Shown here in pieces: positions 1,015 to 41,543 of a DNA stretch of 64,000 bases (its first letter is position 1; each line of letters opens with the position of its first letter). The position numbers and the translations under genes were made by a program. A model generated the notes under the pieces. The model did not search any database. It saw only the letters and a list, made by a program, of their open reading frames with translations, and was not told the DNA's origin. Origin of the DNA: an uncultured virus (IMG/VR IMGVR_UViG_3300038314_001147) (taxonomy: Duplodnaviria; Heunggongvirae; Uroviricota; Caudoviricetes); IMG/VR virus record IMGVR_UViG_3300038314_001147, positions 1-64,000 of that record; one strand, written 5' to 3'.

Positions 1015-1016
1015 TT

Positions 1017-9714: not shown

Positions 9715-12700
9715 ATGCCAATACCACAGAATTCATATGATTATCTAGGACTACAATTAAGTGGTTTAAATGATAATTCTATAGCTAAAGATGTAGGAGG
9801 AAAGGGATTTAATATTTTTTATCCTGACTTTGATACAGCTGAACAGCTATATGGAGAAAAGTTAAAAGGTGAGGGAATGTCTGATCAAGATTTTAAAGAG
9901 ATGTATAATATGGGTCAGATGGGATTTGCTCAATACGAACAGAATGTTTTTAAACATCAAGGTGAGGATAGAAATAGATATGGATGGACATCCGATTTAA
10001 ATGCTTTAGAAGGAATAAATAGAAATCATCCTTGGCAGGGCAATATAGATCCAGAGGCTAATCCTATGATTTCTCCAGATGGAAGAAGAATAATGACAGA
10101 TCAGGAATATGCTTCGACTCTAGGTTGGGTTGCCACTGAAGATGGGAAAAAAGTTGTTTCAGGTAATGAAGTTTTTCCAAATTATGGAGTATTTAATAGT
10201 GAGGGAGTTATGAAAGATAAGCTTCTAACAATGGTATATCCTGAAAATGAAGGTTATAATCCTAAGTTAGGTCAAGCACCTGGAAATCCTTATTTGAAAA
10301 TAACTAAACGTAATGAAGTATTAAAGAATACTGAGATCTTTAGTACTATGGGTCCTAAAGGAGCTCATTCAGATGGATGGTTAAGATCTTTATGGGATGG
10401 TACTATAGGAATGTTATATAAATCAATACCTTCTGCTGTCGGTACTACTATGGAGGCTGCGACTCCTATGATTGAATCTATACATGCTGGTCAAAAAATA
10501 GATGATTTATTTAATAATTCTCCAGGAACATGGAAGGGTGTAGCTAATGAATTACAAAATACCTCATCTTTATGGAAAAATCCTGGTAATTTTCAACAAG
10601 ATGAAGGATTTGGACAGAATTTATCTGCGACTTCATTTGCTATAGGATCTGGTATAGGATCTTTATTTCAACAATTTGCATCTTCACGTTTATTAGGATT
10701 AACTGGAATGAATCCTAAATTAAGAGGTAATATGGCTTCTTTATTATTTTCTGCTCAAGCTGGTGACGCTATCTACCAAGAAGGTAAGGAAAGTGGAGTA
10801 CCAGAAGATCAGTTGGCTGAATTATTTTTCTTATCTGCTTTCACTACACATTTAGTAGAGAGAGGTATAAGAATGAATAATAACTGGATAACTGATGGTG
10901 GTGCTATAATGGCTGTTAATAGAGATATAAGAGCTACTATTAAAAAAGAAATTAGTGAAGCATTGAAAATCTACGGTAAAAAGAGCTGGACTGAATTAAG
11001 TAAAGCGGAACAACAACAGGCTAGTAAAAGTATTATGAGAAAAATTGGTGACTTTACTGGTAAATATTGGAAAGGTGCCAATGAATATATGCAAAAAGGA
11101 ACTAGGTTATCTAATACTGTAGCCGCTTTTGCGGAAGAGGGTACTGAGGAACTTATAGAGCAGGTTTTAAATAATAGTTATGAAACTTTTACTGATTATT
11201 CTAATAAATTAGCAAATCCTGATTGGAGTCCTGGCAGTGGGTTATTTGGTGCTATTGATCCTAATAAAGGTGCATTTGAAAATCTTGTTGCTTATAATAC
11301 TACAGATGATAATAGAAGATTAACAGAGGGAACTTGGGAGTCTTTTATTGTTGGAGGTATCTCTGGTGGATTTATGGGATCATTTAGAGGTCCTGTTACT
11401 CACAGGGAACATTTAATGCAGGCTTATGTAGTTCAAGGAAAACAAAAAGAGTTTTTTGATGTACTAGAACAGATGAGAAAGAAAGGTGAATTAGGACCAA
11501 AAAATGTTGATATAGAAGGAAAACCTATGAATGCAGATAATCCTGAAGGCGTTTCTGCAAATGAATTTGTTTATAATCAAATGAAAGGTGAATTTGAAGC
11601 ATATAATAATGTGTGGAATGATTCTGGAATAGCTCAATGGTATAAAGCTTGGACTGCAAAAGATAAATTAAAGAAATCATTTTTAGGTATCAAATATGGA
11701 AGAGATAAGATAAAAGAAGCTACTCTTCACGCTATGTTTGTTGATAAATTAAAAAATGGAGGATTTGATGCTAAATTAGTTGCAGCTGATAACACTGTTC
11801 TAATGACAGCCTTAAGAGCAATGAAAGAAGTAACTGAACTTGAAGCTTCCAAACAAGAAGATGGTGCAAATATTGAAGCAATTGATAAAGAAATTGCAAC
11901 AAAACAACAATTTATAGAGAGTGTAAAAAGTGGTGACGAGTTCAAAAATATATATAAAAGAGCATATTTATTTCAAAGATTAAATTATGATCCATTTTTC
12001 CAATTACCATATGCTGATTTAGCGACTATTGCTGCTAATGGTACCCCTGAAAGAGTAGTTGATCAGATTAATCAGTCAGTAGAGAAGTATGTTCAATATA
12101 TGCAACAGCAAGCTCAGCAATGGGAACAACAAAGACAAGAAAAACTTCAATCAGATCAGGATTATTTAACAACTTTAGGTGCTCTTGATCTTCCTGGATT
12201 AAGCATTGAGAAACTTAGCGGTATAATTAATGCTACTTCTGAATATGGTGGAGATACTGAAACTATTAAAAATATAGCAAAAGGATTAACTGCCAGAATA
12301 GAACAGGCTATTGCAGACTTAAATAAGGATTTTACAGATAATGAATTAATACCAGAGGGATTAGAGTTAGAGCATCCTGTAGCGGAAGGGTTTAATCCAG
12401 ATGCCTTAAATTTACTTAATGATATAGTTGGAAATGAAGATTTAGCAGAAGATGAAAAAATTGTTTCTAAGGAAATGCTTGATAATATAAATAAAATTCA
12501 ATCATTAGAAGACGGTAGAAATAGTTTATGGGAATCCTCTGAAAAAGAACAACCTAAAAATCCTTTTGATCAAGATCCACAGAAAATAAAATTTGATGGA
12601 TACTTATCTCAGCTACAGGAAGACGAGGAAGGTAAGGTTACTAATGTACAAAATATTCTTGAAGTATTAGATTACTTTAAAGATAAACAAATAACAGATA

Positions 12701-15700
12701 TTGAAACAATAAATCAAATTAGTAATCTTTTAATGCAATTACAATATGTTAGATCATCTGCTAGAGCTAATGTGATGGTATATAATTATATGGAAGATGA
12801 AATATCTGGACTAACTGATAATAATAGATTATCTGATCAAGAATGGAATCAATTAGATGCCATGATTCAATCTGCTTTAGATTTAGGAGAATCAATTAAA
12901 GGGAAGTTTGCTACTAGAGAAATGATTGAGCATAATTATAAAGAACAATTTATTAAAGTTAATAAAAAATACCTAAAGGATATTTTCTCTAGATTGGATG
13001 CTATGGGATTAATGACAGATGAAGATAAAAGGGTATTTACTAGCGTTTTTGAAGATGCTGTAATAAAATATAATGACGCTAGAGAACCATTAGGAGAAAA
13101 TTTAAATCAAGAACAATTAGTTAGATTAAGTGAATTACAAAATGAAGTTATTAATGGTCTTGAGGCTGCGATGACTACAATAGGGAATGCATTAAGAAAA
13201 AATCCTGATAAAGCTCAGGAAATATTTAATCAACTTTTTGGATACTGGGATGGTGATAAATTTAAACCAGGTATATATTCTTACGCTACAGATAAAAAAA
13301 GAGATCATTGGCAAACATCATCATGGTATATGACTTCCTTAGGGACTATTGTTAACGATGATAATGGAGCAGCTTCATATGTTAATTTCCCTTTTATGAA
13401 TTCTAATAATTTGATCACTCAGGTAACTCAGGCAACTGAGGAAGAAAAATTTGAGAATGGTAATATGAAGAAATTTCATATAAACTTACACGCTTTTAGT
13501 AATTTATTTAATTTATTAAAACGTACGGATCGAGTTCAGCTTAATGAAGCTATAGCTGCTCATTTTAATTCATTTGCTGCTGATGAACTTGCTCCTTCTT
13601 TTGAACAAAAAGTTGTAATAGAGCAAGCTGTTTCTTTCTTAATGGATCAAAGTCGTGCTTATGTACCCAAAAGCAAAGAACAAAAATTATTCGACAATTT
13701 CTTAGTTATACAAGGAGCAGCTGGAACTGGTAAAAGTACTACTGTTTTAAGATCTATAATTTCAGTAGCTTCTAAATTGAAAAATTTAGATAAAAAGACA
13801 ATTGTGATATCTGTACCTTCTGCTCACCAATCTACAGATATGAGAAGAAGAGTGGCTGAGAAGTTTCCAAATTTAAATGTTCAGGTTATTGAAGAAGGAG
13901 AACTTGTTAATGGCGAGATTGGTGATAATGTTGCATTTGTAGTAGCTGACGAGGCTACCTTTTTAAGCCTTGATGATCTTAAGAAAATAAAGAAAAGTAA
14001 TCCTGATACTCCTATATTGTTAATGGGAGATGTTAGTCAAATGTCTGGAGACGGATCTTCTGTGGCTCCTGTAAATCAACATATATCTGAAGTAACAAAT
14101 CCTTTAACAGAAGTATTTAGAACAAATGTTTATCATATAAATAAAGTTCAATCTGCATTTAGATCTGTTTCAAATATATCAACCGAATATGTGGCTCCTG
14201 TATTGCCATTTGGTGAAGTTACTGCTGACAATAATATAGGCGTTAAATATATAGAAGATAAAGATGGTAGTGCTCAAATTATGGAAGTTATTGATGCTGC
14301 TAAAATAGATGATAATAATGTAACTATAATTGTTGGAAGTGAAGAATCTAGAAATACATTAATAGCTGAAATTAATAATATAGATGCAAATATTAATGCT
14401 AAAAAAATTGTAAAAACAATTATAAAAGGAGATAATAGTGCTCAAGGTCTCGAATTTGATAAAGTATTTGTTCGCATATCTACAACTGATATTCCTTATC
14501 AATGGAATAAAGCAATGTTAACAGCAACATCTAGAGCTAAATCATATCTTAATATTTTAGTTCCTGATGATATAAGATTACTTATGACTTCTGTTCCCAC
14601 CTCTAAGGTTGTTGAACAGATTACAGGACGTGGCGATGAGATTGTGGCTGATGAAGCAAATCAATTACAACAATATAAACAGAGAGCTGCCGCTAATAGT
14701 GCCGGTTTGTTAGAATATCTTAAAAATTTAGGATTTAATGTTACGGTACCTACAGAGACTGTAGATGACGGTCCTCAGGGCAATGAAGATCCTACAGAAG
14801 GGTCTAACCAGGAAAAGGTATATAGTGCCTTAATGAGGGTTAAAGAGAAAGAAGGTGATATTAAGAGAGATAATGACGATCAGCCTTATGCTGTTAAAAT
14901 TAATGCTGAAGGAGATTTATTTTTCCCAACAAGATCAAGTAATGCTATAAGTTCTGTTATGCCCACTAGACCAGCATCTGTTAAGGATTCTACTGCATCA
15001 AGAACTGTTGGTAATATAATACATAAACTTATTGAAAATTATGTAAATGGAACTGCTAGTGAGAGAACTCAAATATTAAAAAATCTAAAAGAACAAATAA
15101 CTAGAGTTAATGATAATCAAAAACATCCTATTAATTTAAATAAATCTCTTTATACTGGTATTATAGACGCTGTTAAGGCACAAACAGAAATGATAGATGC
15201 TGGCTTAAAAGCGGGAAGTATGTTTATTACTGAGCTGCCTATTGTTAATATGCAATTTGGATTAGGAGGTACTTTAGATTTAGTTGAAGTTAATAGATTT
15301 GGCAATGTAAGTATTATAGATATAAAAACAGCTAGACCAGGAGCTTTTGAAGCGAGAAAATATAAGTCTCCAATATTCAGTGGTGTTGGTCAAAAATGGA
15401 TGAAAAAACCTAAGGGATATGAAGAGAGTACTGGTCTTGTTTTACCTAATTTAGTTAATAGTAAAAAGAATAATGTTGGATTACAGCAATTTATTTATAG
15501 GAAAATGATGGAATCTGGAGAGCCTTTAATAGGTCTTCAACCTAATGTAGTTAGATCTATATGGATAAACTTCTCTAATATTAATGCACGAACTGGTGAA
15601 TATACTGGATCTGGTAAATTTTCATTTGCTCCAGATTATAAATATTCAGAAAGTGAATTAGATGCCTTAGAAGCATGGACTGATGCTATTATATGGAATA

Positions 15701-18700
15701 ATATAAATACTACAAATATACCTGTAACTGAAGGTCCTCCTGCAAGAGTAGACGTTAAAGATACTGAGACGGAGATAGTAGTTGATGACGACACAACTCC
15801 AGATGGTCCTATTATAAGAGGATATTTACCTATGCCTGAAGTGACTGGAGAGGAAATTATTGATAATCAACAACAAACTGATCCTACTGGAACAAAAGAT
15901 ATTATTAATTTTGATTCTATAGATAATCATAAAAATGGTAACTTAACCGCCATGTCAAGATCTTCTGTTACAGGAGGATCTAATAATCTTAATGAAAATC
16001 CACATAGAGCATTTAAGTTTTTTGCTTTAGAAACTCTTGTATATAGTGCTCTTAGAAATGGTAGAAATCCATCTTCACATACTACTAAATTAGTTTATTA
16101 TAAGAAAAAAGAATTATTTAGTGATGCTCAAGGAATGATGGTTGAATATGACAATGTACTGGCTGTTGAATTAAATCCTGGTGATCCTGGTGTTCAACAA
16201 ATGGTTAATTTCTTCCAGCAAAAAACTGGAATTACTCCAACTGCCGAAATGATGTTGTTAGGGACTGTTCCGAATATAGACAGACATACATATGAAGGAA
16301 ATCCTAATACAGTTCCAGCTTCTGTCGTTTTAGATGCATACAATGCAGATAAATTAGAATATAGAAAAATTGGATGGGATGGTGCTGGAGTTGACGGTAA
16401 ATATGATTTTGGACCTATACAAATAACAAATGTAACTCCAGGAAGAATATCTTTTACTAATTCTGCTAATGCAATAACTGTTGCTGACTTAAAGAGTAAG
16501 TTTGAAGGACAAGGAGTTAAATTTGGAAATATTGTAGTTCTTTATAATCCTCCAGGAAAAGAGGGTATAAGAGAATCTGGTTATTATCTTCCTGTAACTT
16601 ATGACGCTGGTTCTGTTTCTGGAAGAGCTCCTGTTAAACCTAAGACTACATTAATTAAATTAAAAACTAAAAAAATTGATGCTCTTGCTTACGGGAATGA
16701 ATTAGCTGAACAGATTGTAAATGATCCATTATATACAAACGATTATACATGGTGGTCTGATATATTAGATTACTGGAATGCTAATCCTTATACCTTTATA
16801 GACTTTAGTGATCCGTTAGCTCCTCAACTCAGGGGTAAATTAGGTAATTTTAATTATGGAGAAGGTCCTATCCTTTCAGTAAAAGAAGACGCTTCTAGTA
16901 CAAGAAATAAGAAAAGGGTTAGGCTTCATGTAAAGCTTCCTAATAATTTAACATCTAGTGAGGCTGGTAAATTCGTACAAGCTTTATTTAAGGAAGTAGG
17001 TCGTATGGTTCAAGAGGAAAATCTTACTCCAATGGGAGAAAGAATAGATGTTAAGTTTGTTGAAAATGCTAGAGCTGGTGACAATAGATCTGGATTAGAG
17101 GCTATTGATCAAGTTTCTGCATCTAATAATATGACTATAAATGTTGACCAGATATTTGATCCTCAAATAGTATTTAAAATGCCTTCAAAAGTCCGCAAGA
17201 AAGGTGGTAATCCTAATCCTAATGGCTCTAATGATGGACCTAATAATATGGATAATTTTAAACCAAAATTCAATATTAAAAGAATAACTAATGAAACTAG
17301 GATAACTTCTCAAGATGCTGAGGCTATTATAAGAAGAATTCTTGGAGATGAGTATTATGATACTCTCGTCCAGGAAGTTGGCAATATAACTACAGAAGAG
17401 GGGATGCAGGCTTTTGGTAGAGTGCAGAACGCTTTAATGACTTTAGAGAATATGGGTGGTATAGAATCTACTACATCTAGACATGAAGCAGTTCATATAT
17501 TAACTACACATGTTCTTTCTCCTTATCAACGAAAAAGACTTTTAGTAGACATTAAAAGAAAAATGGCGAAGTCTAGAAATATACCAGTTAATACTATAAC
17601 TGATATAATGGCTGAAGAATGGTTAGCAGATTATTATGGAAAAGCTTATGATACTACAACATTAAAAGGAGCTCTTAGGAGCTTTGTAGATTGGCTTTTG
17701 AGAGCTACAGGTCTTAATAATTATTTTTATGGAACTATTAATCAATTTATGTCTGATGCAGAATCTGGTCAATATTCGGATCAGGTAATGGAAGGTATAG
17801 TTTCCTATAAAGGACCTAGTTATAGTATGTATAATAAAAAGGGAGAAACAGTACAGCGTCCTGATTATTTAGTTAAAATATTTAAATTACCAACTTTAGT
17901 TGCTCAAATTCATAGAGATGTTATTGAAAAAGATTTAATATCTGAGTCTATTTTAAGTCCTACTGTTACTGGTTCTAATGCCGAAATAAAAGATGCTGTA
18001 AATATTATTAGTCTAAAATATAAATCTCTTGCCAATCAATACTTAGCAGAAGAGCAAACCTACAATATGAATGGCGTAGAAGTTCCTTTAAAAGGATTAA
18101 ATCCAGATCAAGCACTTTCTTTATTACAAGACGGGAATATTGAAACATGGAAAAAATGGGTTGTACTTCAGTTAACTAAAAAAGGACCTAAGGATTCATT
18201 ACCTATAATAGATAAATTTGTTAGACTAACATTCCCAGATTTTAAAAGAGATCGTAAGGACTCTAAAACGATACTTAATTTTGAAGGAAAAGAAATGTCT
18301 GATGAGGATATAACTAATTTTGAGTATCTTGAAGAACATGGAGAGTCTTCTATTCAAATGGAAAATGATCGTAAAAATCCATTAGACTCTTTAACTGATA
18401 TGACTAGATTGTGGTTAAACAATATAGATTATTATATTTATGAGACTTTAGGAGACGGTCAAAGAGTTGCTAGACCAGCTAATCCTTCCGATGAACATCA
18501 GTATATAAAACAAGATAATTTATGGGCTACTCTTATCCAATTGCAACAAAAAGCTAAATCTGGTGACGAAAGATATAGAGGGCTCCCAACTATGGAAGCA
18601 TTTAGATTAGTTCTTTTGGACGCTGCTAATAATTCAGGAGAGACGTATATGAAAAATATGTTATTCTCTGTATATGATAGAGTGTTCTTTATGCCCGGAG

Positions 18701-21700: not shown

Positions 21701-24700
21701 GAGGAACTAGATGGCAATTGAATCCACACAAAGAAATTGAACGTGATGATTCCGCCATGTTTAAACAATTAGCTGCAGAGGTGATGGTAGGAGCTTCTAC
21801 TCAAGAACAATCTGAACGTATAAATAGATTAGTAACATCTCAAGCTGAATTGAATAAGTTAAACAGACAAGAAATAAGCCAGAAAATAGATGAAATGGGA
21901 GTAAGTGATTTTTTAAGAAATGAAGCTGAAAAATCAGCTGCTAGTCAAAATACTGAATTAGCTCAATTTCTTAGATTAATTGCAGATGATAACATATCTA
22001 TTCAAATTCCAGTTATTGCTACAAGAATTAAGAATGTATTAAGAAAATTATTTAATAAGGGGATTAAACCTAGAATGAAAGGATATTCAGCGGTACAAAT
22101 GCCGGGAACAATGATGGAAATTTTTGAAACTAATAACGGTGAAATCTTTACTTTAAAACAAGTTGAAAATATATTAGGAAGAAAGTTGGAAATAAATGAA
22201 GATATGGCAGCAGTTGCTAGTGAATTAGGTGTTGAATCGATTAATGCTAGAAATCTTAATCATCTTAAAATAATTATCGGAAAAAGAGATGTTTCAAATC
22301 CCGACTTGATTTCTTGGTCTGATCCAGAAAAGATAGTATTAGAAGCTATGGACCAACTTGGAGTTTCTGTTGAACAGTCAAGACAAAATTATTTAGCAGC
22401 CATTAGAGCGGCTATGGAAGCTGAGGATCATATAGTTAAAATAATTCCCCCTGAGGCTATAACACCTTTTGATGCAAATGATGCTCAAGCATTTGGATTT
22501 AATATAGAAGATTCAACTGCTTATACTTACTATAAAAATTGGGATGTTGCCGATATAATGACAATCAATTTTTCTGACGGAACTGCAGCTAGGTATGAAT
22601 CTATGGGTAATGATCCAGAACAAATAGAATCTGTTATTGCTGATATGGCAAGTAATGGGAATCCTATTAAAATTGATGATACTCTCGCATGGAAAGTATT
22701 AGTTAGTAGAACTCCTCAATTAGCTGAAGCAGACTACTCTGTACAATTATTATCATTAATGAATTTTTATAAATCATTTGATAATTATCTTCTTACAGTC
22801 ATGAATAGGGTACCTTCTTCCAATACAGCTACCGGGAATCAATATAGGATTATTTCTTTCGTACACGATAATGGGAACGTTGTTTGGCAATCTCCTAATA
22901 AAAACATTTTAGATGATTCCGATTATGATGTGGATGAGCAAAGAGTTTATACATCTCAAATAGGGGTAGAATCTGGATTTGATAATGAAGAAGGATTAAA
23001 AGAAATGATATTTAATTCTGTAAGATCATTCTATCAAGATCCTAATAATATTCAATTCTTCTATTCTCCGGTAAGCGTAGAACAAGACAGAAAAAGTGTT
23101 GAAGGTGCAAATGAAAGCCATAAGATTAAAGAAATCCTAAGAGACTTAGGTCATGAACCAGGAAGTGGTTTAAAATTAAATGATGTAACTAGTTCTGTAA
23201 TGGCGTATGAAGATATAATGGAAGGGAAATATACTGTAGGACCTTTTATCATGACCATTAAGGCTTATACTCATTTATATAATGCATATAAATCTGTAGA
23301 GGGATCCCATTTCAGATTGAATTTTATGGGGGAAGTATATAGTAGTTTTAGTAATGGACCTGCTGGAAATGGAAGAAGTGCTGATGGTGCTTATGTAATA
23401 GATTTATTAGCGGAATTGTCTCAATTAGCATTAGATAACGCTAATGAACTTGTTTTAGGTAAGATATTAGCTAATCCGAATACTGCTTATTTTATAGCAG
23501 GATTAGATATTGCAGGAGTTCCTAGAGAAAAAATTATTCAATTCTTACTGAATTCTACAGTTAGCGGAATGTTGCAAGAGCAGAAGAGGTCAACGTCTGT
23601 TCATAGAACTACAGTAGATTTACTTGAAAATATTGATGTAAGATCTGCAGATATTGAAGCAGGTAAGGTTATGGAGATTTTACAAAAACAATTTAACGAT
23701 GATTGGAGTTATTCTGGACTCAGAAAGTTTGCTCAACTATTAGATAGATTTGCTATACTAAATACTGATAGTGAGGAAAGGAAACAAAGATATATAGGAG
23801 ATAGAGGTACAGATCCTAATGAAGTGTCTAATGACCAGAAGACTCAAATGATTGTTTCAACAATGCCAGCTGTAAGAAGAAATTATGAAGGGAGAAATGT
23901 TGTTGAAGTTTTAATGCATCAAGAAGATTTTAGTTTTGACGGGTTATCTACCTCGCAACAAACAAATGCTATTCAGTTCGCTATAGACAATCTTATAATT
24001 ACAGAAATCTCTGATCCAGAGGCAATTAAAACTAACACTTTTGCATTAGCTTCTATTTATAGTGATTCTGGTCTCGCTGGAGTAGCAGCTTTAAGTGGAT
24101 TAGAAGGTTCAGAGGCGGCTGTTATTCTTGATCAAATACAAGTAGCCAAAACAATCGCTGCAGTAGAAACTATTCCAGCTCTTGAAATGTTAGAAGAGAT
24201 TGTTAAAAAAAGCTCCGTTACTGGTAGGGAGCCTAATTGGGAAAATATAAAAAATGCTCTTGAAAATAAACTTGAAGTATTAGCCTCCTTCAAAAAGATA
24301 ATTTTATTTGGAGAAGCTATAAAAAGAACAGCTTTAACATCTAATATAGATCAGGGTATTTCTAAGGGAGACTATGGGTCTTCTATGATGCTGCGTAATA
24401 TGGAAATATGGGCTAATCAACCTTTTGAATTTGATGATAATGGGGATTTAGTTGTAGTCTCTTCTACAGCTGTTCGTGATCCAGAATATTATTTTATGCA
24501 GAAAGCGTCTTCACTTGATGGTACTCCTAGAAAAACTGATAATGGAGCTGACTTATTATCTCTCTTAGATACATTTAGAGAAAATGAAACAATTATAAGA
24601 TCTTATGTTGATATTGGTTTGGTAATAGAAAACAATCCACATTTAAAAGATTTCATTGCATCTCTAGTTCAGTATAATCAAATTAACAATTCTGCATTTA

Positions 24701-27700
24701 AGGTAAATCAAATGAAGGATATAATTATGAGAACGATATTAGAGGATATAAATAAAGATTCATTAAGTGAAAGACAATTTGATAACTTAATGGGTAATTT
24801 ATCTTCTTATCTTATAGGTAAATATTTTAGTGGTCAAGCAGGAAAGGTTAATATGAGCTTCGAGTATGATAATAAAGGAGATCAAATAGGAGAAGTACTC
24901 TTAAATACTCCAGAAGGTAGACACGTATTCTTAGATCAATTTGCTGAAAGAGTTGCATATATAAAAAATAATTTAGATAAAAGTGAATTTAAAGAATTTT
25001 CTGGTAATCATTTCTTTAATAAATTACAAGTCCGACCTTCTAGATCTGGTGGATATCATTTAACTATAGATGGCTTAGGGAGAATGGATGTTAGAGAATT
25101 AGCCAAATTACAATATTCTTTAAGTAAAATTCCTGACACTGCCTTTGTACAAGGATTGTTTAATTATTCCATTATCCAAAGCGGATTCCAAATGGGACCT
25201 AATAATATAACAAGTTTATTTGATGAAAAATTATTTTATCCATTGTCTAATTTCCTTGAGGGGTTACATATGGACACAGAGAAGTTCACTTATCCAGAAA
25301 TAGAAAATGAATTCAAAACTCCATTCTTAGTGAAGAATCCAAATCTATTAGATAGATTAAAAGATGATGATCCTAATTATGAATTTGAAGCAGAGGAGGG
25401 TGCACTTCGTAGAGAATATACTGGGATTACTCATTCTGGAAGAATATTAATAACAGACGCACAAAATCCAAATATTCCACATGCTGAGTATGTTACCGCT
25501 TATCTTAAATTGCCATACATGAGAAGAGCTTCCTTATTTGTATTAAAACTTAATGATGAGGGCGTGGAATATACAATAATAAAAAATAAATATAGTAATA
25601 AGTCTATTCCGTTTAAGGATGATGCTATTGTACCAGTGGAAGATAGTGAGGGGACTGCAGTTGGAACTGGTATTACTTTTAATGTTCCTTATGATGTAAT
25701 GAAAAATATACAAAAAGGGAAACCTGATAGAATAGTATTAGCTGGAGGAAAAGTTTCTTATGGTAAGGGATGGATAGATGTATGGGCTACAGGATGGAAT
25801 AAGATTGTACAAATTAATACAGGTACTAATCCTACTAATAACATACTAGTACGTCCTCATCCTGATGATTTACTTTCTGTATATCTTGGCATTAATTCTA
25901 TTCAATCTAGAAGACTAGGTGCACGGAGTTTAGATCTATATATTAATAGACTATCAAAAGCATTCCCAGGATTAAAAGGTGTTATTAAAGTAGTAGGCGG
26001 CAAAGAGTTCCAAAGAATGTTTAGTAAAAATACTTTAGGATCTGTAAGTAATGGAATGATATATTTTAACAGAGATAAGGTAGCCTTAGATACTCCCGCT
26101 CACGAGTTAGGTCACATATGGTTAAGAGTTATTCAAAGGTTCCAGCCAGATGTCTATACTCAATTGCTTTCAAAAGCTTATAAATCACCTTTATATGGCG
26201 TTATTAAAAGTCAGCCAGAATATAGTAATCTAAGTGATGTTGATATTGCAGAAGAAGTTGTAGTAACCTCTTTAGGATTTAGAGTTTCAGAATCTAATTT
26301 TGGTAAATTGGTTTCAGAGATAAATGAAGATGGTACTGCATCTATGATAACTGAAATTAAATTATGGATAAGTGATTTTTGGGCTAGTGTTAAAAATGGA
26401 TTAAGAAGACTGTTTGGATTTAGAGCTAATCCATTTAGAGGATTAGATATAGAAAACTCTTCTTTGTATACTATAACTCAATCCATGGCTGATACTATGA
26501 TGAAAGGAGCTAAGGTTAGTAATATTACTCCCGCAGAATTCTTTGGCATAAAAGATACAAGGACTAGACTTTCTGTTACTTTAGGAAGTGCAACTGATAT
26601 AACTAATGATATATTAGGATTATCTTCAGAAGCTCAAGTATCTACTGACTTCCAAACTGTAAAAGATCAAATGAAGAAATCCATGTTAATGTCACAAAAT
26701 ATAAGCGGGGAGTTTGCTTTTGAGACTAATGGTGGTAAGAAATATGTATTACCAACTTTGACTGATGAAGCAGCTATAAATAATATGGTTAAAAAAATTA
26801 TTGATGAGCGGGGAGATTATGAAGGCAAGCTTCGTGAAAATATAGTTGCCTTTATAAGAACTAGTAATGCAGATTCATTACCCCCTTCTTTACAAAAACA
26901 TGCTGATCAGATTACTAAGCTAATAGGAGCAAGGGAAAGTGAAGAGGTATTATTATATCAAGATTTAAAAAGCCATGAGGATCCTGGCGTTAGAGCTCTT
27001 TATAATCCCGCTGTTGTTAGTCCTAGATTTAATCCTATTATGTCTGTTAGAAAAACAAATGAAGGTGGGGTGGTTGTTAATATGCATGATATAACTCCTG
27101 TATCTTTAAGAACTGTATATGGCTCTAAATTAGATAATTTCTCTACTTATCAAGAATCCTCTATATTAGACAGTAGCGTTGTTAAATTAACGAATACTGA
27201 AGCTGGTAAAAGAAAATTTGAATTACTCCTTGGTATAGCTGGAATGATTCAAAATAATCCAAATGTTAGGTTTAGAAGATTAGGTATCCATCAATTAACT
27301 ACTAATGATGTTGTTAGTGAGGGACTACATTTAGGGGAATACTCTAAGGAATTAAAACAAATAATAACTAATAAGGAATTTAAATCTAAGCTTAGTCCAG
27401 AGATGTTAGCTATATTAGAGAATGATAATATACTAAATCTTCAAAATTATAAACAAGCTTGGCTATCTCAGCTTACAGATTTTTATCAAGCAGAAAAAGA
27501 TAGAATGTATAAGATGGCTAAAGCCGAACCCGCTGCAGGAAAGAAAGGATCCAGGTATTCTAAAATGGGATTTGATCTTGCAGAAGCTGTAGATATTAAC
27601 GGTATGTTTGGAAAGGATATTGAAAGAGTAGTAAAATCTAGGATGGATCAAATGATGAAACAGTACGGAAATCAACTGGAAGGTCCTAATGGGCTATTAC

Positions 27701-30087
27701 AGGATGAAGAGTTTAGATTATTATCTAGAAGTCTTAGAATGATTAAAAATAGAGGAAGGAAATCAATTGCTTCTGATAGTACTGTAGATGTTAATTGGAT
27801 TAAAAAACAAATTGGTGGTAATTTTAATTTAGCTAATCCTATTGCTCAATGGTTTGTAAGAGAAATGAAAAGAGCTATGGATGTAATAGGCAATAGATTC
27901 TTTAGAGAATATAAAAAACCATTTGCTAAATTATTCTCTCCTGTTCAGAAATTTTACGAGAATAGTAATCCTTTCTCATTAGTATCAGAAAGAGTAAGAG
28001 ATACAAATTGGAAAATATTTGATGCTATGCTTATTAAGCAACAGGCAAAAGATGAAAATGGCGGTGAACACTTGGTCGACTTATATCAAATTTATCATTC
28101 TGGAGATCCTAGAACTGCAGCTGCCGTGTCATCGGGAAAAATTAATAGTGATCATGTTGCACTTGGAGATTTTATTGTAAAAACAATTAAAGATCAAATA
28201 GTAAAAAGTAGAATGAGAAAAGGTGAAACTCGTGAAGAAGCTGTTGCTTGGTATGACGGTAACTGGACTGATGGAATGTTACCTACTATGGCTAGACGTG
28301 CTGCTCAAAAAATATTTGGAGGAGATCTACAAGGCGGAATGTCAGATTGGTTAAAGGCTTATACTAATTCTAATGAATTATTTGAAAATGTTATAGAGAA
28401 AAAATCTGGATATGATCTAGGAGATATGTTTGCATGGCAAGCAGGATCTAGTACTTTAGGATCAGAGCAGAGACAAAAAATGTTAGGATTAAGGACTAAT
28501 GAAAGCGGAGAGCTTATAATGAGAGAGAATGGTCTTAAAGATAATCGTGGAATAGAAAAGAATCTTGAAGTAATTATGAATTATTTTGTAATGAATCAAA
28601 TAATGAAACAAGAGATGGATGATATCATGCCAGAGTATATGGCTTCAAAAACTTTACTATATAATTACGATAACTCTAAAGGATTAAAATATAAAAATAC
28701 AATTGATTATATTGACAAAACTACTGATTTCTTAATTAAACAGCAGCGACAAGGTATTGGGGTATCTGTTCCTTTACCTGGGAATAGATCAGTAGCTGTA
28801 GATAATATAGTTAATAATGCAAATGGATTAGTATCATTTGGAATTATGGGTGGTAATATATATGCGGATACAGTAAACTTTATGGCTAATGCCTTACAAG
28901 CAGCTTCTTTTGCATGGGGTCAAACATTAAATAAAGGATCTGAATTCTTTAATTGGAAAAACATTGCTGTAGCTGTAAAGGTTGCGACTACTAATCCTGA
29001 ATTAATGTGGAAGTTAATACGTCAATATCGTTTTGCACAAATGGACAATCAAGATTTAATTCATGCAAAATGGCTACAAAAATCACAAAAACATTTCGCT
29101 TTATTCCAATCAAATTGGTTATTTAGTTTAAATTTTGCTGGAGATTATATAAATAGAGCGATAGTTTTAATGGCTCAAATGGATAAAGATGGCGTTTTAA
29201 GTGCTTACAGTGTTGGAAAAGATGGGGAATTAATTTATGATGTAAAAAAAGATACTCGTGACGCAAAAGTTAAGAAAAAAATTAAAGATGAATTAGTAAG
29301 AGAAGGAGTTCAAGATGAAGATGAGCCATTACAAAGAGCTTATGATTCTAGGCTTCGTACTAGAGTAAAAACTATAGCCGATAAGTACATTACTGGTTCA
29401 TATGACCAAGATGTAAACAGGCTTTTAAATTCTCACGTTTTAGGTAAGATGTTTTCCATGTTTAAGAAGTATGCATTTGATAAAATAGAGAATACATTTC
29501 AAAGAGGTCAATGGAATGAAGCACTTGGAAACTACGTAATTACCGAAATTGACGATCCATTTGTCCCTGGAGATAAAAAAATGGAAGTTATTTGGCAAGA
29601 ACGCTTTGTAGAAGGAACAATTATGAGTATATTTGCAATGTTAAATGAAGCTAAAAGAATTACAGAATTATCTCCAGGTGAATTACACACAATCTGGACC
29701 GGTCAAGAACCCCAAAGAAAAGAGAATATAATAAGACTTGCTCACGATTTAATGTTGGTGACAGCAATAATTAAAGTGCTTCCATTCTTAGTTGGAGGAT
29801 TGGATGATGAAGAAGATTCTACAATGGAGCAATTTATGGATACAAGGCTTTGGAAGAGTGTTGAATTTGGATTTATGGATTTATTATATGGGACTAATCC
29901 TAATGAATATTTTAGAGCTTTAGCTGATCCTTTTGTAACGATTGTACAAATGGAAAGATATTTTCAATTTATACAATCTTGGTTCAGTGGAGAAAGTACT
30001 AAAATGCATAATGCTGCAAGAAAATCATTTGGAGCTTACAGAACTATATCTGACGTTCCTGAATATGTAAATATGTTTAAAAATTAA
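9715..30087 (+). CDS. Giant virion RNA polymerase polyprotein (helicase, nuclease, zincin and RNAP domains)
   Basis: 6790 aa; DYDVD at 22921-22935 preceded by 'NRVP'; Walker A GAAGTGKST 13714-13740; 'VADEA', 'GDVSQ', 'QGLEFD', 'TATSRAK'; 'GTLDLV..IIDIKT..QQFIY'; HEAVH 17482-17496; HELGH 26101-26115. Confidence 0.85.
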   Translation: MPIPQNSYDYLGLQLSGLNDNSIAKDVGGKGFNIFYPDFDTAEQLYGEKLKGEGMSDQDFKEMYNMGQMGFAQYEQNVFKHQGEDRNRYGWTSDLNALEGINRNHPWQGNIDPEANPMISPDGRRIMTDQEYASTLGWVATEDGKKVVSGNEVFPNYGVFNSEGVMKDKLLTMVYPENEGYNPKLGQAPGNPYLKITKRNEVLKNTEIFSTMGPKGAHSDGWLRSLWDGTIGMLYKSIPSAVGTTMEAATPMIESIHAGQKIDDLFNNSPGTWKGVANELQNTSSLWKNPGNFQQDEGFGQNLSATSFAIGSGIGSLFQQFASSRLLGLTGMNPKLRGNMASLLFSAQAGDAIYQEGKESGVPEDQLAELFFLSAFTTHLVERGIRMNNNWITDGGAIMAVNRDIRATIKKEISEALKIYGKKSWTELSKAEQQQASKSIMRKIGDFTGKYWKGANEYMQKGTRLSNTVAAFAEEGTEELIEQVLNNSYETFTDYSNKLANPDWSPGSGLFGAIDPNKGAFENLVAYNTTDDNRRLTEGTWESFIVGGISGGFMGSFRGPVTHREHLMQAYVVQGKQKEFFDVLEQMRKKGELGPKNVDIEGKPMNADNPEGVSANEFVYNQMKGEFEAYNNVWNDSGIAQWYKAWTAKDKLKKSFLGIKYGRDKIKEATLHAMFVDKLKNGGFDAKLVAADNTVLMTALRAMKEVTELEASKQEDGANIEAIDKEIATKQQFIESVKSGDEFKNIYKRAYLFQRLNYDPFFQLPYADLATIAANGTPERVVDQINQSVEKYVQYMQQQAQQWEQQRQEKLQSDQDYLTTLGALDLPGLSIEKLSGIINATSEYGGDTETIKNIAKGLTARIEQAIADLNKDFTDNELIPEGLELEHPVAEGFNPDALNLLNDIVGNEDLAEDEKIVSKEMLDNINKIQSLEDGRNSLWESSEKEQPKNPFDQDPQKIKFDGYLSQLQEDEEGKVTNVQNILEVLDYFKDKQITDIETINQISNLLMQLQYVRSSARANVMVYNYMEDEISGLTDNNRLSDQEWNQLDAMIQSALDLGESIKGKFATREMIEHNYKEQFIKVNKKYLKDIFSRLDAMGLMTDEDKRVFTSVFEDAVIKYNDAREPLGENLNQEQLVRLSELQNEVINGLEAAMTTIGNALRKNPDKAQEIFNQLFGYWDGDKFKPGIYSYATDKKRDHWQTSSWYMTSLGTIVNDDNGAASYVNFPFMNSNNLITQVTQATEEEKFENGNMKKFHINLHAFSNLFNLLKRTDRVQLNEAIAAHFNSFAADELAPSFEQKVVIEQAVSFLMDQSRAYVPKSKEQKLFDNFLVIQGAAGTGKSTTVLRSIISVASKLKNLDKKTIVISVPSAHQSTDMRRRVAEKFPNLNVQVIEEGELVNGEIGDNVAFVVADEATFLSLDDLKKIKKSNPDTPILLMGDVSQMSGDGSSVAPVNQHISEVTNPLTEVFRTNVYHINKVQSAFRSVSNISTEYVAPVLPFGEVTADNNIGVKYIEDKDGSAQIMEVIDAAKIDDNNVTIIVGSEESRNTLIAEINNIDANINAKKIVKTIIKGDNSAQGLEFDKVFVRISTTDIPYQWNKAMLTATSRAKSYLNILVPDDIRLLMTSVPTSKVVEQITGRGDEIVADEANQLQQYKQRAAANSAGLLEYLKNLGFNVTVPTETVDDGPQGNEDPTEGSNQEKVYSALMRVKEKEGDIKRDNDDQPYAVKINAEGDLFFPTRSSNAISSVMPTRPASVKDSTASRTVGNIIHKLIENYVNGTASERTQILKNLKEQITRVNDNQKHPINLNKSLYTGIIDAVKAQTEMIDAGLKAGSMFITELPIVNMQFGLGGTLDLVEVNRFGNVSIIDIKTARPGAFEARKYKSPIFSGVGQKWMKKPKGYEESTGLVLPNLVNSKKNNVGLQQFIYRKMMESGEPLIGLQPNVVRSIWINFSNINARTGEYTGSGKFSFAPDYKYSESELDALEAWTDAIIWNNINTTNIPVTEGPPARVDVKDTETEIVVDDDTTPDGPIIRGYLPMPEVTGEEIIDNQQQTDPTGTKDIINFDSIDNHKNGNLTAMSRSSVTGGSNNLNENPHRAFKFFALETLVYSALRNGRNPSSHTTKLVYYKKKELFSDAQGMMVEYDNVLAVELNPGDPGVQQMVNFFQQKTGITPTAEMMLLGTVPNIDRHTYEGNPNTVPASVVLDAYNADKLEYRKIGWDGAGVDGKYDFGPIQITNVTPGRISFTNSANAITVADLKSKFEGQGVKFGNIVVLYNPPGKEGIRESGYYLPVTYDAGSVSGRAPVKPKTTLIKLKTKKIDALAYGNELAEQIVNDPLYTNDYTWWSDILDYWNANPYTFIDFSDPLAPQLRGKLGNFNYGEGPILSVKEDASSTRNKKRVRLHVKLPNNLTSSEAGKFVQALFKEVGRMVQEENLTPMGERIDVKFVENARAGDNRSGLEAIDQVSASNNMTINVDQIFDPQIVFKMPSKVRKKGGNPNPNGSNDGPNNMDNFKPKFNIKRITNETRITSQDAEAIIRRILGDEYYDTLVQEVGNITTEEGMQAFGRVQNALMTLENMGGIESTTSRHEAVHILTTHVLSPYQRKRLLVDIKRKMAKSRNIPVNTITDIMAEEWLADYYGKAYDTTTLKGALRSFVDWLLRATGLNNYFYGTINQFMSDAESGQYSDQVMEGIVSYKGPSYSMYNKKGETVQRPDYLVKIFKLPTLVAQIHRDVIEKDLISESILSPTVTGSNAEIKDAVNIISLKYKSLANQYLAEEQTYNMNGVEVPLKGLNPDQALSLLQDGNIETWKKWVVLQLTKKGPKDSLPIIDKFVRLTFPDFKRDRKDSKTILNFEGKEMSDEDITNFEYLEEHGESSIQMENDRKNPLDSLTDMTRLWLNNIDYYIYETLGDGQRVARPANPSDEHQYIKQDNLWATLIQLQQKAKSGDERYRGLPTMEAFRLVLLDAANNSGETYMKNMLFSVYDRVFFMPGDESMGGDVNPLSSSADGLLMYSLMDMAKNPQRIAAENPVNKNAVGNPIKIKALNQADLLHAMESLFRSITQKDYFKSFYDYRLKRTTSVPIRTSFADKILKGFKQKILGKLYTFVEGMPVMTKDSREMFSSQVQVRMLIDGKPANSNSWVFEDELPRLLSAKSVVLDKDGKTPKFYHKAKVQPTFSKKNVKGGTEISLKGMGKIFMVTKNNISWHPDITNIKVVANIILRKVGLTGSDIRSGTINAYLESQPIENLNSRSGQSKLSNVSPEGLSNGLGSIVMDLMDPAGAATDDLARMLGSEDEVFLEETEAIPTALANFQFLQELASVESFSRGDNQNSIYYNVNNDQVYRLVFGGRINDLFGFDGTTADAQDGAIKLFQSNLISLLVSNGVQVNPNANIYDLLNMALESNIQIPVMQETPSGPAILNPFLDPDSLYKIKGIISYDGVTTRYFGKRYGKMTPAEFLDNMINSEFVDKILKNTNRNAYTMPGYTPGDKKSPEFFQIEHDKEAPLVIVKGDAENQSVELNTNFVAAKMVSLFQKKRNQATKTVRKVHSVLREVMTTGVLRYSVNDLGEMPSLQDSISDPRILEEWISGLSENMVNQEDLDKLVDIFRASELIINKDYKVYPDGSLHLGNDSMTQNKKMWVKGQVVEAHDQFYTIQNYDDLMGLSSPAEQWAFIQNKNRGMLLRFIKYLSTANGVGFQRSQAFEDTTPEYDGMYYRTVPTEDGTETQFNPWIESYYYGWMILNNNLEDIIGGSSGDFKSITDLFKRISSEKSPGVVATIGRRGMPVKSEVVILDDNPLRNDLLMLLNDSNPTLNAAEDSLTMQLPLYTLAAHQGLGGRFGMMQNPYGPNKPVHKELDIATNEGLFFKTAGIPLTTELMNRSRKIRAIVEKSLSHKPFMEVDSIDPTTLWDKYLEFEELSINQGGNPWDLLREYVISQDTPQFVQWNKGTSIHKTYVAYFIYNSGVKQGSKMVNNLEYGLTSDEGFQTISVDNRGTRWQLNPHKEIERDDSAMFKQLAAEVMVGASTQEQSERINRLVTSQAELNKLNRQEISQKIDEMGVSDFLRNEAEKSAASQNTELAQFLRLIADDNISIQIPVIATRIKNVLRKLFNKGIKPRMKGYSAVQMPGTMMEIFETNNGEIFTLKQVENILGRKLEINEDMAAVASELGVESINARNLNHLKIIIGKRDVSNPDLISWSDPEKIVLEAMDQLGVSVEQSRQNYLAAIRAAMEAEDHIVKIIPPEAITPFDANDAQAFGFNIEDSTAYTYYKNWDVADIMTINFSDGTAARYESMGNDPEQIESVIADMASNGNPIKIDDTLAWKVLVSRTPQLAEADYSVQLLSLMNFYKSFDNYLLTVMNRVPSSNTATGNQYRIISFVHDNGNVVWQSPNKNILDDSDYDVDEQRVYTSQIGVESGFDNEEGLKEMIFNSVRSFYQDPNNIQFFYSPVSVEQDRKSVEGANESHKIKEILRDLGHEPGSGLKLNDVTSSVMAYEDIMEGKYTVGPFIMTIKAYTHLYNAYKSVEGSHFRLNFMGEVYSSFSNGPAGNGRSADGAYVIDLLAELSQLALDNANELVLGKILANPNTAYFIAGLDIAGVPREKIIQFLLNSTVSGMLQEQKRSTSVHRTTVDLLENIDVRSADIEAGKVMEILQKQFNDDWSYSGLRKFAQLLDRFAILNTDSEERKQRYIGDRGTDPNEVSNDQKTQMIVSTMPAVRRNYEGRNVVEVLMHQEDFSFDGLSTSQQTNAIQFAIDNLIITEISDPEAIKTNTFALASIYSDSGLAGVAALSGLEGSEAAVILDQIQVAKTIAAVETIPALEMLEEIVKKSSVTGREPNWENIKNALENKLEVLASFKKIILFGEAIKRTALTSNIDQGISKGDYGSSMMLRNMEIWANQPFEFDDNGDLVVVSSTAVRDPEYYFMQKASSLDGTPRKTDNGADLLSLLDTFRENETIIRSYVDIGLVIENNPHLKDFIASLVQYNQINNSAFKVNQMKDIIMRTILEDINKDSLSERQFDNLMGNLSSYLIGKYFSGQAGKVNMSFEYDNKGDQIGEVLLNTPEGRHVFLDQFAERVAYIKNNLDKSEFKEFSGNHFFNKLQVRPSRSGGYHLTIDGLGRMDVRELAKLQYSLSKIPDTAFVQGLFNYSIIQSGFQMGPNNITSLFDEKLFYPLSNFLEGLHMDTEKFTYPEIENEFKTPFLVKNPNLLDRLKDDDPNYEFEAEEGALRREYTGITHSGRILITDAQNPNIPHAEYVTAYLKLPYMRRASLFVLKLNDEGVEYTIIKNKYSNKSIPFKDDAIVPVEDSEGTAVGTGITFNVPYDVMKNIQKGKPDRIVLAGGKVSYGKGWIDVWATGWNKIVQINTGTNPTNNILVRPHPDDLLSVYLGINSIQSRRLGARSLDLYINRLSKAFPGLKGVIKVVGGKEFQRMFSKNTLGSVSNGMIYFNRDKVALDTPAHELGHIWLRVIQRFQPDVYTQLLSKAYKSPLYGVIKSQPEYSNLSDVDIAEEVVVTSLGFRVSESNFGKLVSEINEDGTASMITEIKLWISDFWASVKNGLRRLFGFRANPFRGLDIENSSLYTITQSMADTMMKGAKVSNITPAEFFGIKDTRTRLSVTLGSATDITNDILGLSSEAQVSTDFQTVKDQMKKSMLMSQNISGEFAFETNGGKKYVLPTLTDEAAINNMVKKIIDERGDYEGKLRENIVAFIRTSNADSLPPSLQKHADQITKLIGARESEEVLLYQDLKSHEDPGVRALYNPAVVSPRFNPIMSVRKTNEGGVVVNMHDITPVSLRTVYGSKLDNFSTYQESSILDSSVVKLTNTEAGKRKFELLLGIAGMIQNNPNVRFRRLGIHQLTTNDVVSEGLHLGEYSKELKQIITNKEFKSKLSPEMLAILENDNILNLQNYKQAWLSQLTDFYQAEKDRMYKMAKAEPAAGKKGSRYSKMGFDLAEAVDINGMFGKDIERVVKSRMDQMMKQYGNQLEGPNGLLQDEEFRLLSRSLRMIKNRGRKSIASDSTVDVNWIKKQIGGNFNLANPIAQWFVREMKRAMDVIGNRFFREYKKPFAKLFSPVQKFYENSNPFSLVSERVRDTNWKIFDAMLIKQQAKDENGGEHLVDLYQIYHSGDPRTAAAVSSGKINSDHVALGDFIVKTIKDQIVKSRMRKGETREEAVAWYDGNWTDGMLPTMARRAAQKIFGGDLQGGMSDWLKAYTNSNELFENVIEKKSGYDLGDMFAWQAGSSTLGSEQRQKMLGLRTNESGELIMRENGLKDNRGIEKNLEVIMNYFVMNQIMKQEMDDIMPEYMASKTLLYNYDNSKGLKYKNTIDYIDKTTDFLIKQQRQGIGVSVPLPGNRSVAVDNIVNNANGLVSFGIMGGNIYADTVNFMANALQAASFAWGQTLNKGSEFFNWKNIAVAVKVATTNPELMWKLIRQYRFAQMDNQDLIHAKWLQKSQKHFALFQSNWLFSLNFAGDYINRAIVLMAQMDKDGVLSAYSVGKDGELIYDVKKDTRDAKVKKKIKDELVREGVQDEDEPLQRAYDSRLRTRVKTIADKYITGSYDQDVNRLLNSHVLGKMFSMFKKYAFDKIENTFQRGQWNEALGNYVITEIDDPFVPGDKKMEVIWQERFVEGTIMSIFAMLNEAKRITELSPGELHTIWTGQEPQRKENIIRLAHDLMLVTAIIKVLPFLVGGLDDEEDSTMEQFMDTRLWKSVEFGFMDLLYGTNPNEYFRALADPFVTIVQMERYFQFIQSWFSGESTKMHNAARKSFGAYRTISDVPEYVNMFKN

Positions 30088-39389: not shown

Positions 39390-39404
39390 TTAAAATAATA
39401 AAAA

Positions 39405-41419: not shown

Positions 41420-41543
41420 TAAATATTACTACGATACAGAAAGAAATCTATCTAATGAGCAGATTTTAAAAAAAAGAATTAAAGAACTAAAAGAAAAAAT
41501 AAAATGGCTAACAAAAGAATTAGACTCTCTCCTGAAGAGTTAA
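41358..41543 (+). CDS. Small hypothetical coiled-coil protein
   Basis: 61 aa bridging the oxygenase and phosphoesterase genes, overlapping both. Confidence 0.4.
   Translation: MEQKILDHILMESCPDPQCHSKYYYDTERNLSNEQILKKRIKELKEKIKWLTKELDSLLKS

What the first reader, a model, noticed from the sequence alone, without database searches (positions are those of the whole stretch)
9715..30087. 6790-aa single-chain ejectosome/virion RNA polymerase
Seen: one 20.4-kb ORF with an N-terminal 'EEGTEELIEQ' ejection-like region, helicase, nuclease, zincin, RNAP (NRVP...DYDVD), second zincin and a hydrophobic C-terminal region. Known: crAss-like phages package an RNAP with a DxDxD loop (phi14:2 gp66, roughly a third of this length), usually as one of several large genes. 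Inference: several cargo genes are fused here and may be cut apart after synthesis.
Basis: partly seen in the sequence, partly recalled or inferred. Interest (0 to 1): 0.75.

Follow-up and report, generated by a model that had tools for sequence, protein, structure and literature searches.

The report
Giant fused crAss-type virion polymerase
This 20-kb gene of a marine crAss-like phage is real: it joins the RNA polymerase that such phages pack and inject, its two usual partner proteins and a DNA helicase into one 6,790-residue chain, a known design in a helicase-bearing form that is common in uncultured relatives.

Summary
The ORF (9715-30087, +, 6,790 aa, 763 kDa) is real. Contigs from other samples tile it, and a 6,917-aa relative aligns end to end at 37%. 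It lies in a complete 82.8-kb phage whose terminase groups with environmental phages beside the named Crassvirales families.

Order in the chain: conserved N block, SF1B helicase, PD-(D/E)XK nuclease, zincin 1, two-barrel RNA polymerase (best PDB match phi14:2 gp66, 6VR4, E 1e-15), zincin 2, C block. This is the gp67-gp66-gp65 (gp47-gp50-gp49) block in one gene. Fusion, possible cleavage, sizes up to ~6,000 aa and an embedded nuclease are already in print. Eighteen full-length 5.9-6.9k-aa relatives share the layout; one frame is longer (7,505 codons).

'Single-chain ejectosome' is overstated: the genes in the channel-cargo positions stay separate. Cleavage is untested, and zincins persist where the genes are already split. 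The distinctive part is the intact helicase upstream of the polymerase (31 of 31 long members). It plausibly supplies the single-stranded template that gp66 prefers. Two RefSeq Suoliviridae carry a different helicase downstream. No structure prediction was obtained. Verdict: new variant of a known kind.

The parts
9715..30087 (+). Giant ORF, 6,790 aa: fused virion RNA polymerase block (gp67/gp47-like + gp66/gp50-like + gp65/gp49-like) with helicase and nuclease
10624..11574 (+). Conserved N block (aa 304-620) with EEGTEELIEQ at aa 474; function not shown
   Evidence: Present in all 18 full-length members; matches cr4_1 gp26 N-terminus, E 1.9e-26 in a small local search; no match to crAss001 gp45/gp46; Atlas hits are unnamed viral clusters
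13675..14607 (+). SF1B (Dda/RecD/Pif1-like) helicase, aa 1321-1631, motifs I-VI present
   Evidence: Pfam; motifs in 31 of 31 long members; profile matches Dda 3upu E 1e-11, RecD 1w36 E 1e-8, Pif1
14986..15564 (+). PD-(D/E)XK (RecB/Cas4-like) nuclease, about aa 1758-1950, directly behind the helicase
   Evidence: Pfam PDDEXK_1 over cut-off; catalytic pattern kept in P0002; same pattern behind the helicase in 6 proteins, P0001 included
17287..17799 (+). Zincin 1 (HEAVH aa 2590, downstream EE); ends the gp47-like part. First natural boundary estimated at aa 2770-2880
   Evidence: Profile matches crAss001 gp47 C-terminus, E 1.3e-17 local; HExxH in 14 of 18 full-length members
20833..23694 (+). 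Two-barrel RNA polymerase core, aa 3707-4660; R4365, P4367 and D4403/D4405/D4407 invariant
   Evidence: hhalign to gp66 probability 99.25, E 5.6e-20, 635 columns; PDB top hit 6VR4, E 1.4e-15; invariant columns
25891..26382 (+). Zincin 2 (HELGH aa 5463, downstream EE); begins the gp65-like part. Second natural boundary estimated at aa 5200-5345
   Evidence: HExxH in 17 of 18 full-length members; L023/L028 are split about 120 aa upstream of it; gp65 HEIMH at 245
26530..30084 (+). C block (aa 5606-6790), gp65/gp49-like, the most conserved part; one hydrophobic segment at aa 6679-6697 (29749-29805)
   Evidence: Profile matches gp65 E 1.5e-20 and gp49 E 2.3e-10 local; aligns with the separate 1,491-aa gene of L028, E 2e-25
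415..5039 (+). Context: crAss tail ring protein 1 (415-1014) and muzzle protein (1017-5039)
   Evidence: Pfam CrAss_Ring_1 E 1.3e-25, crAss_MUZ E 5.9e-66
5043..9713 (+). Context: three separate genes (808, 109, 644 aa) in the position of cargo proteins C1/C2; not fused to the giant; homology to gp45/gp46 not shown
   Evidence: no Pfam match; no phmmer match to gp45/gp46 or gp68-70 and no hydrophobic peak

Best explanation
The gene is the whole virion RNA polymerase block of a crAss-like phage in one chain. SHOWN by sequence: one frame; homology of its three parts, in order, to gp47-, gp66/gp50- and gp65/gp49-type proteins; intact polymerase, helicase, nuclease and zincin motifs. INFERRED from phi14:2 and crAss001: it is made late, packed in the head, pushed out partly unfolded ahead of the DNA into a Bacteroidota host, and transcribes the early/replication genes, which here lie on the opposite strand (about 42.7-61.8 kb). 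INFERRED here: the SF1B helicase arrives with the polymerase and unwinds or tracks along the incoming DNA, giving the polymerase the single-stranded template that gp66 needs in vitro. The nuclease is an optional add-on acting on host DNA or DNA ends. The zincins serve maturation or activation. I put about 45% on a cut at one or both natural boundaries, 40% on the chain staying whole, 15% on other processing.
For: Polymerase homology. Colinearity with the split blocks of phi14:2, crAss001, cr4_1 and L023/L028. Position behind ring, muzzle and two cargo-sized genes, as in crAss001 and phi14:2. Mass 763 kDa against 694 kDa for gp47+gp49+gp50. Helicase in 29 of 29 representatives with at least 2,200 aa upstream of the polymerase core, and in 16 of 16 IMG/VR loci that reach far enough. 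A different SF1 helicase sits behind the polymerase in cr118_1 gp14 and cr50_1 gp059, so the pairing recurs. gp66 transcribes single-stranded or denatured DNA well and duplex DNA poorly, and its relative QDE-1 needs a helicase (10.1101/2020.03.07.982082). The genome has its own DnaB-like helicase elsewhere.
Against: No fold was predicted, so the double-psi barrels rest on profile matches (16% identity to gp66). A narrower profile (A3) and the single sequence missed 6VR4. phi14:2 and crAss001 transcribe early genes with no helicase in this block, so the helicase is not needed for this polymerase type. Packaging, ejection, host and any coupling of helicase and polymerase are untested for this phage. 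The helicase tree is a quick one and its N-terminal set was gathered with a profile built from that set.
Confidence: 0.68

Rival explanations
1. Strict polyprotein: the chain is only a precursor, cut by its own zincins into gp67-, gp66- and gp65-like proteins that then work as in phi14:2; the fusion fixes stoichiometry and packaging.
For: Proposed in print for fused forms. Both zincins sit beside the natural gene boundaries. All 18 full-length members keep at least one HExxH. An R/K/S-Y/F-S/A/E motif follows zincin 1 in 10 of 23 members against 2.4 expected. Phage P1 DdrB is processed before packaging (PMC5512222).
Against: Zincins persist where the genes are already separate (gp65, gp47, cr4_1 gp26 and gp27). 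Zincin 1 is absent from 4 of 18 full-length members. The motif was chosen after seeing the alignment and is missing in P0002. The boundary regions are among the least conserved between P0001 and P0002 (27% against 37%). N4 virion polymerase has a HExxH domain and is packaged uncut.
Confidence: 0.4
2. Uncut tethered machine, as for N4: the N or C block stays at the membrane or channel, the enzymes hang into the cytoplasm, and helicase plus polymerase pull the genome in; the zincins are structural, regulatory or act on host targets.
For: N4 vRNAP is one multi-domain chain whose HExxH-bearing C-terminal domain inhibits the polymerase (PMC13434306). One conserved hydrophobic segment near the C end. 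Fusion state varies freely, one to three genes, with the same order.
Against: Only 9 of 18 members have that hydrophobic peak. Split relatives work without covalent tethering. 6,790 aa is nearly twice N4's chain and must pass a tail with constrictions under 50 A.
Confidence: 0.35
3. Helicase and nuclease are passengers for counter-defence or DNA-end processing (a RecD-like motor followed by a RecB-like nuclease), delivered early by riding on the polymerase block and not coupled to transcription.
For: The block is a known landing place for add-on domains: ART-PolyVal, NADAR and PDDEXK in named genomes; PDDEXK in these proteins is noted in print. Helicase-nuclease tandem in 6 proteins. The genome also encodes a Sak4-like annealing protein and exonucleases.
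Against: The helicase is constant (31 of 31) while the nuclease pattern was found in only 6; a passenger would be expected to vary more.
Confidence: 0.3
4. Assembly artefact: separate genes joined by a chimeric contig or lost stops.
For: No single listed contig spans the gene; one X4 joint (13518 to 18990, 23 letters on the short side) and one compensating +1/-1 pair in a 43-base X3 contig were listed.
Against: Overlapping gap-free contigs from other samples, mostly synonymous variants, an end-to-end 37% homologue found as 6,917 aa in 8 of the 13 members of its cluster, and 16 further full-length relatives.
Confidence: 0.01

Closest known systems
Cellulophaga phage phi14:2 gp67-gp66-gp65 (gp66 = virion RNAP, PDB 6VR4)
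   Same: Homologous two-barrel polymerase core with DxDxD; zincin 2 and C block match gp65; same order and same place behind the muzzle gene.
   Different: Three genes (1,797 + 2,180 + 1,421 aa) against one; no helicase or nuclease found there; no match to gp67 was obtained, so that equivalence is positional.
Bacteroides phage crAss001 gp47, gp50, gp49 (RNAP-associated cargo)
   Same: Zincin 1 matches the gp47 C-terminus, the core matches gp50, the C block matches gp49; similar total mass.
   Different: Three genes, gp50 and gp49 on the other strand; no helicase; no zincin 2 motif in gp49.
Suoliviridae cr4_1 gp26+gp27, cr118_1 gp14, cr50_1 gp059 (RefSeq)
   Same: N block + zincin 1 + polymerase already fused (4,491-4,946 aa); split at the same second boundary; cr118_1 and cr50_1 carry an intact SF1 helicase in the polymerase chain; cr4_1 gp27 has a weak nuclease match.
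   Different: Two genes; their helicase lies behind the polymerase and falls with stand-alone Dda-like helicases in a quick tree.
Coliphage N4 virion RNA polymerase (gp50) and phage polyvalent proteins
   Same: Works like it: giant packaged and ejected polymerase chain with zincin (MPTase) domains and variable add-ons.
   Different: N4's polymerase is T7-like, not two-barrel; about half the length. No polymerase homology is claimed.

Membership tests
crAss-type virion RNA polymerase (gp66 family) | DxDxD catalytic loop in homologous context | tested here: met
   D4403/D4405/D4407, R4365 and P4367 invariant in 27 sequences; aligned to gp66 DFDID
crAss-type virion RNA polymerase (gp66 family) | Sequence homology across both barrel regions of gp66 | tested here: met
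   hhalign 635 columns, gp66 874-1685, probability 99.25; 6VR4 is the only PDB hit under E 0.01; missed by a narrower profile
crAss-type virion RNA polymerase (gp66 family) | Two double-psi beta-barrels in a 3D model | not testable with these tools
crAss-type virion RNA polymerase (gp66 family) | Packaged in the virion; transcribes early genes | not testable with these tools
   Inferred from gene position and homologues only
crAss RNAP cargo block (gp67-66-65 / gp47-50-49) | Parts homologous to the flanking proteins, in order | tested here: met
   Zincin 1 to gp47; zincin 2 and C block to gp65, gp49, cr4_1 gp27; N block to cr4_1 gp26. gp67 itself unmatched
Order Crassvirales | crAss-type capsid, ring, muzzle, portal and terminase genes | tested here: met
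   Pfam Crass_capsid E 1e-31, rings 1, 2, 3/4, crAss_MUZ, P22-like portal; terminase best hits are Crassvirales at about 30%
Order Crassvirales | Terminase falls inside one of the four named families | tested here: not met
   Quick tree of 21 rows: own + G001-G005 form one branch (SH-aLRT 96) apart from the named families and Fpv3 (98); root on one long branch; zeta and epsilon groups not included
Order Crassvirales | PolA or PolB in the replication module (usual outside the epsilon group) | tested here: not met
   PF00136 and PF00476 found nothing in the 99%-complete genome; divergent phage PolB types were not searched
SF1B helicase (Dda/RecD/Pif1) | Motifs I, II, III, IV, V, VI | tested here: met
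Zincin metallopeptidase (MPTase) | HExxH plus downstream glutamate | tested here: met
   Both copies in P0001; activity and substrate untested
Self-cleaving polyprotein | Conserved cleavage sites at the boundaries and processed products | tested here: inconclusive
   Weak post-hoc motif after zincin 1 (10 of 23); none seen at the second boundary
Ejectosome channel proteins (crAss C1/C2, gp45/gp46) | Homology to gp45/gp46 within the giant | tested here: not met
   No Pfam crAss_CARG1/CARGO2 match and no profile match; distant homology is not excluded

The most novel reading that the evidence does not exclude
An environmental sister lineage of the named crAss families is marked by a helicase built in upstream of its virion polymerase. 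The whole 0.7-0.8 MDa chain is ejected uncut and works as a coupled motor: the SF1B helicase (here followed by a nuclease that could remove one strand) makes the single-stranded template and draws the genome in while the two-barrel polymerase transcribes it. That would give a phage version of the QDE-1/QDE-3 polymerase-helicase pair and a testable answer to how these polymerases start on duplex DNA.
Probability: 0.25. Interest if true: 0.65.

Novelty: new variant of a known kind. Interest (0 to 1): 0.32.

Why it matters
How crAss-type virion polymerases open duplex DNA, and whether fused blocks are cut, are both open. This lineage offers a natural construct with the helicase in the same chain, and natural one-, two- and three-gene forms that mark where to cut it for expression. 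The gene itself is not exceptional: size, fusion, zincins and nuclease are described, and many uncultured relatives look alike.

Tried and rejected
Single-sequence searches of the giant against the PDB (first 5,000 aa) and named phages found nothing; the C-terminal third found only a zincin 2 match in Gundel_1 gp074, a shared domain and not an orthologue. Profile A3 missed 6VR4. NCBIfam gave only sub-cut-off RecD/AddB hints. The ESM Atlas gave no usable hit for aa 2050-2480 and only unnamed clusters for the N block, one with LPD22 on 12% of members. A search for shorter proteins with the helicase-nuclease part found none; this does not prove there are no split forms. Locus searches with P0054, P0038, part of P0055 and the own core found no relatives, so the ends of the two-part proteins P0037, P0055, P0038, P0028, P0014 and P0018 were judged from repeated lengths and long contigs, not from DNA. 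P0033 looked like a stand-alone polymerase but is a fragment of a 5,241-aa member. 13 of the 30 motif matches were unrelated genes and were dropped. No convincing repeated promoter motif in 55.4-62.1 kb. The helicase tree's careful search did not finish; cr3_1 and Fpv3 helicases were left out.

Full report
Observation. The frame 9715-30087 (+) is one ORF of 6,790 aa, 763 kDa, without cysteine. It starts one base after the stop of the gene before it. The window is the first 64 kb of an 82,832-base contig with a 99-base end repeat, rated 99% complete.

Not an artefact. I laid 4 of the 21 listed runs, all marine metagenomes, on 9900-29899. X2-X4 are other samples of the study that may be the source; X5 is another study and gave only short pieces. 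X3 contigs tile 9900-17243, 17229-20790 and 20763-28251 without gaps, X4 pieces bridge both overlaps, and X2 and X4 pieces reach 29230. No single listed contig spans the gene. One short-sided joint and one compensating indel pair in a 43-base contig were listed. Of the 40 variants shown (110 more not shown), 33 are at third positions, 34 are synonymous and none is a stop. P0002, 6,917 aa, aligns end to end at 37%; 8 of the 13 members of its cluster have that length.

The phage. Ring, muzzle, capsid and portal genes are crAss-type. The terminase is about 30% identical to named Crassvirales, best to Suoliviridae. In a quick tree of 21 terminases, this phage and five IMG/VR genomes with the same giant form one branch (96) apart from all four named families and Fpv3 (98); the root rests on one long branch and zeta/epsilon were not included. 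So it is crAss-like in the wide sense and outside the named families. Primase, DnaB-like helicase, AAA ATPase and Sak4 genes lie on the minus strand; no PolA or PolB was found. A Bacteroidota host is inferred from SprB repeats in the next gene and a homologue, P0055, on a 4.8-Mb Hymenobacter siberiensis contig.

Anatomy. Profiles built from relatives give the order: N block (304-620), helicase (1321-1631), nuclease (about 1758-1950), zincin 1 (2525-2695), polymerase core (3707-4660), zincin 2 (5393-5556), C block (5606-6790). The core aligns to phi14:2 gp66 over 635 columns (probability 99.25), and a 27-sequence profile finds 6VR4 as the only PDB hit under E 0.01 (E 1.4e-15). The single sequence and an 11-sequence profile missed it. 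No fold was predicted. Zincin 1 matches the end of crAss001 gp47; zincin 2 and the C block match gp65; the C block also matches gp49; the N block matches cr4_1 gp26 (small local searches). gp67 gave no match, so that equivalence is by position. The helicase profile matches Dda, RecD and Pif1 structures.

How common. A search of the core region found 60 representatives. Sixteen of them, plus P0002 and this protein, are full-length chains of 5,920-6,924 aa with the same order. All 29 representatives with at least 2,200 aa upstream of the core carry the helicase; with P0001 and P0002, 31 of 31 keep Walker A and B. Of 30 motif matches in IMG/VR, 17 are in this family (about 10 distinct lineages): 15 run through to the C block, 2 near-identical ones are split just before zincin 2, and all 16 that reach far enough upstream have the helicase. 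One open frame is 7,505 codons, longer than this one. Six further proteins end 797-1,037 aa after the DxDxD, with repeated lengths or long contigs, and look like natural two-part forms. The boundaries map to about aa 2770-2880 and 5200-5345.

Named genomes. Of 16 named records searched with the helicase profile, 2 have a match inside the polymerase gene: cr118_1 gp14 (4,946 aa, RefSeq 'exonuclease V') and cr50_1 gp059 (4,774 aa, 'DNA helicase'). There it lies behind the polymerase, with motifs intact. A quick tree puts the 39 upstream helicases on one side of a long branch (100) and these two with 5 stand-alone helicases on the other. This suggests two captures but does not prove it. phi14:2 and crAss001 have none. 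Nuclease, ART and NADAR add-ons occur in named blocks.

Literature. [quoted passage not shown] PMC10136315 (passages): polymerase genes 'up to ~6000 aa', a hallmark. 10.1101/2020.07.20.212944 (passages): PDDEXK domains occur in the large transcription proteins; environmental phages outgroup the gut groups. PMC7886860 (passages and a term search of 7 supplements, one scanned file not searched). PMC10172136 (passages): gp45 and gp46 are the proposed channel proteins; gp47, gp49 and gp50 are polymerase-associated. PMC5512222 and PMC13434306 (passages): N4 polymerase has a HExxH domain and is packaged uncut; P1 DdrB is cut. 10.1101/2021.06.01.446427 (passages): this module is swapped by recombination. 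Six searches showed no paper on a helicase in this block. Yutin et al. 2018 was not held, and figures and bioRxiv supplements were not visible, so it may be drawn there.

Mechanism. The best reading is a late-made, packaged, partly unfolded and ejected polymerase block that transcribes the opposite-strand early genes, with a helicase delivered in the same chain to open or track the incoming DNA. Homology and motifs are shown; packaging, ejection and coupling are inferred. On cleavage the evidence is split. For: both zincins flank natural boundaries, all 18 full-length members keep one, and a weak motif follows zincin 1 (10 of 23 against 2.4 expected, chosen after the fact). Against: zincins persist in split genomes, 4 of 18 lack zincin 1, and N4 is not cut. 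'Single-chain ejectosome' is not supported, because three separate genes occupy the C1/C2 positions and no part of the giant matched gp45 or gp46.

Earlier notes. A word search, run after this reading was formed, returned 17 findings of this scan with the same theme; the 8 shown agree. They are unchecked AI notes and are not used as support.

Verdict. Real, correctly recognised as a crAss-type virion polymerase fusion, and one member of a widespread environmental family. New variant of a known kind; interest 0.32.

Noticed in passing
window 30100-40598 (+): Three genes behind the giant (1,399 aa with five SprB repeats and a Hoc-like match, 1,696 aa unassigned, 397 aa tail-fibre-like) have higher GC (0.35-0.38 against 0.32) and reversed AT skew: looks like an imported receptor-binding module.
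   Followed up: no
G000 whole genome: No PolA or PolB found although primase, DnaB-like helicase, AAA ATPase and Sak4 are present; minus-strand ORFs 42720-44342 (540 aa) and 48421-49902 (493 aa) have no family match.
   Followed up: partly
L004:17785-19719 (G000 80785-82722): 645-aa protein at the end of the structural module with a C-terminal SET-domain match over the Pfam cut-off (E 7e-6).
   Followed up: no
P0055 (WP_216726103.1): 5,628-aa member with helicase, zincin 1 and polymerase on a 4.8-Mb Hymenobacter siberiensis contig: possibly an integrated crAss-like element. Its surroundings could not be fetched.
   Followed up: partly
G001:C1 (L027, L039): Open frame of 7,505 codons, the longest seen here, with extra large genes (1,293, 1,644, 1,018 aa) between muzzle and giant.
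   Followed up: no
window 9715-30087: No cysteine in 6,790 aa; P0002 also has none and most members have 0-2.
   Followed up: no
window 15862-17154 (aa 2050-2480) and aa 2700-3600: Regions conserved with P0002 (about 30-43%) but without any family or Atlas match.
   Followed up: partly
L002:27486-34724 (crAss001 gp50): gp50, not gp49, carries DFDVD and matches the gp66 core; a passage of PMC10172136 calls the solved structure a homologue of gp49.
   Followed up: partly
L038:18138-29003 (cr116_1); L037:863-18981 (cr131_1): In these named genomes the polymerase core itself is split around the DxDxD region by an inserted gene, probably an intron.
   Followed up: no
window 40811-42580 (+): A gene matching the PHROG 'DNA endonuclease V' family (weakly 2OG-Fe(II) oxygenase) and a DNA-repair exonuclease gene close the plus-strand block.
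   Followed up: no
window 58342-58394, 58447-58511, 59141-59239, 61215-61321: Short inverted repeats and an AT-rich stretch in the early-gene and divergent region; no significance test was run.
   Followed up: no
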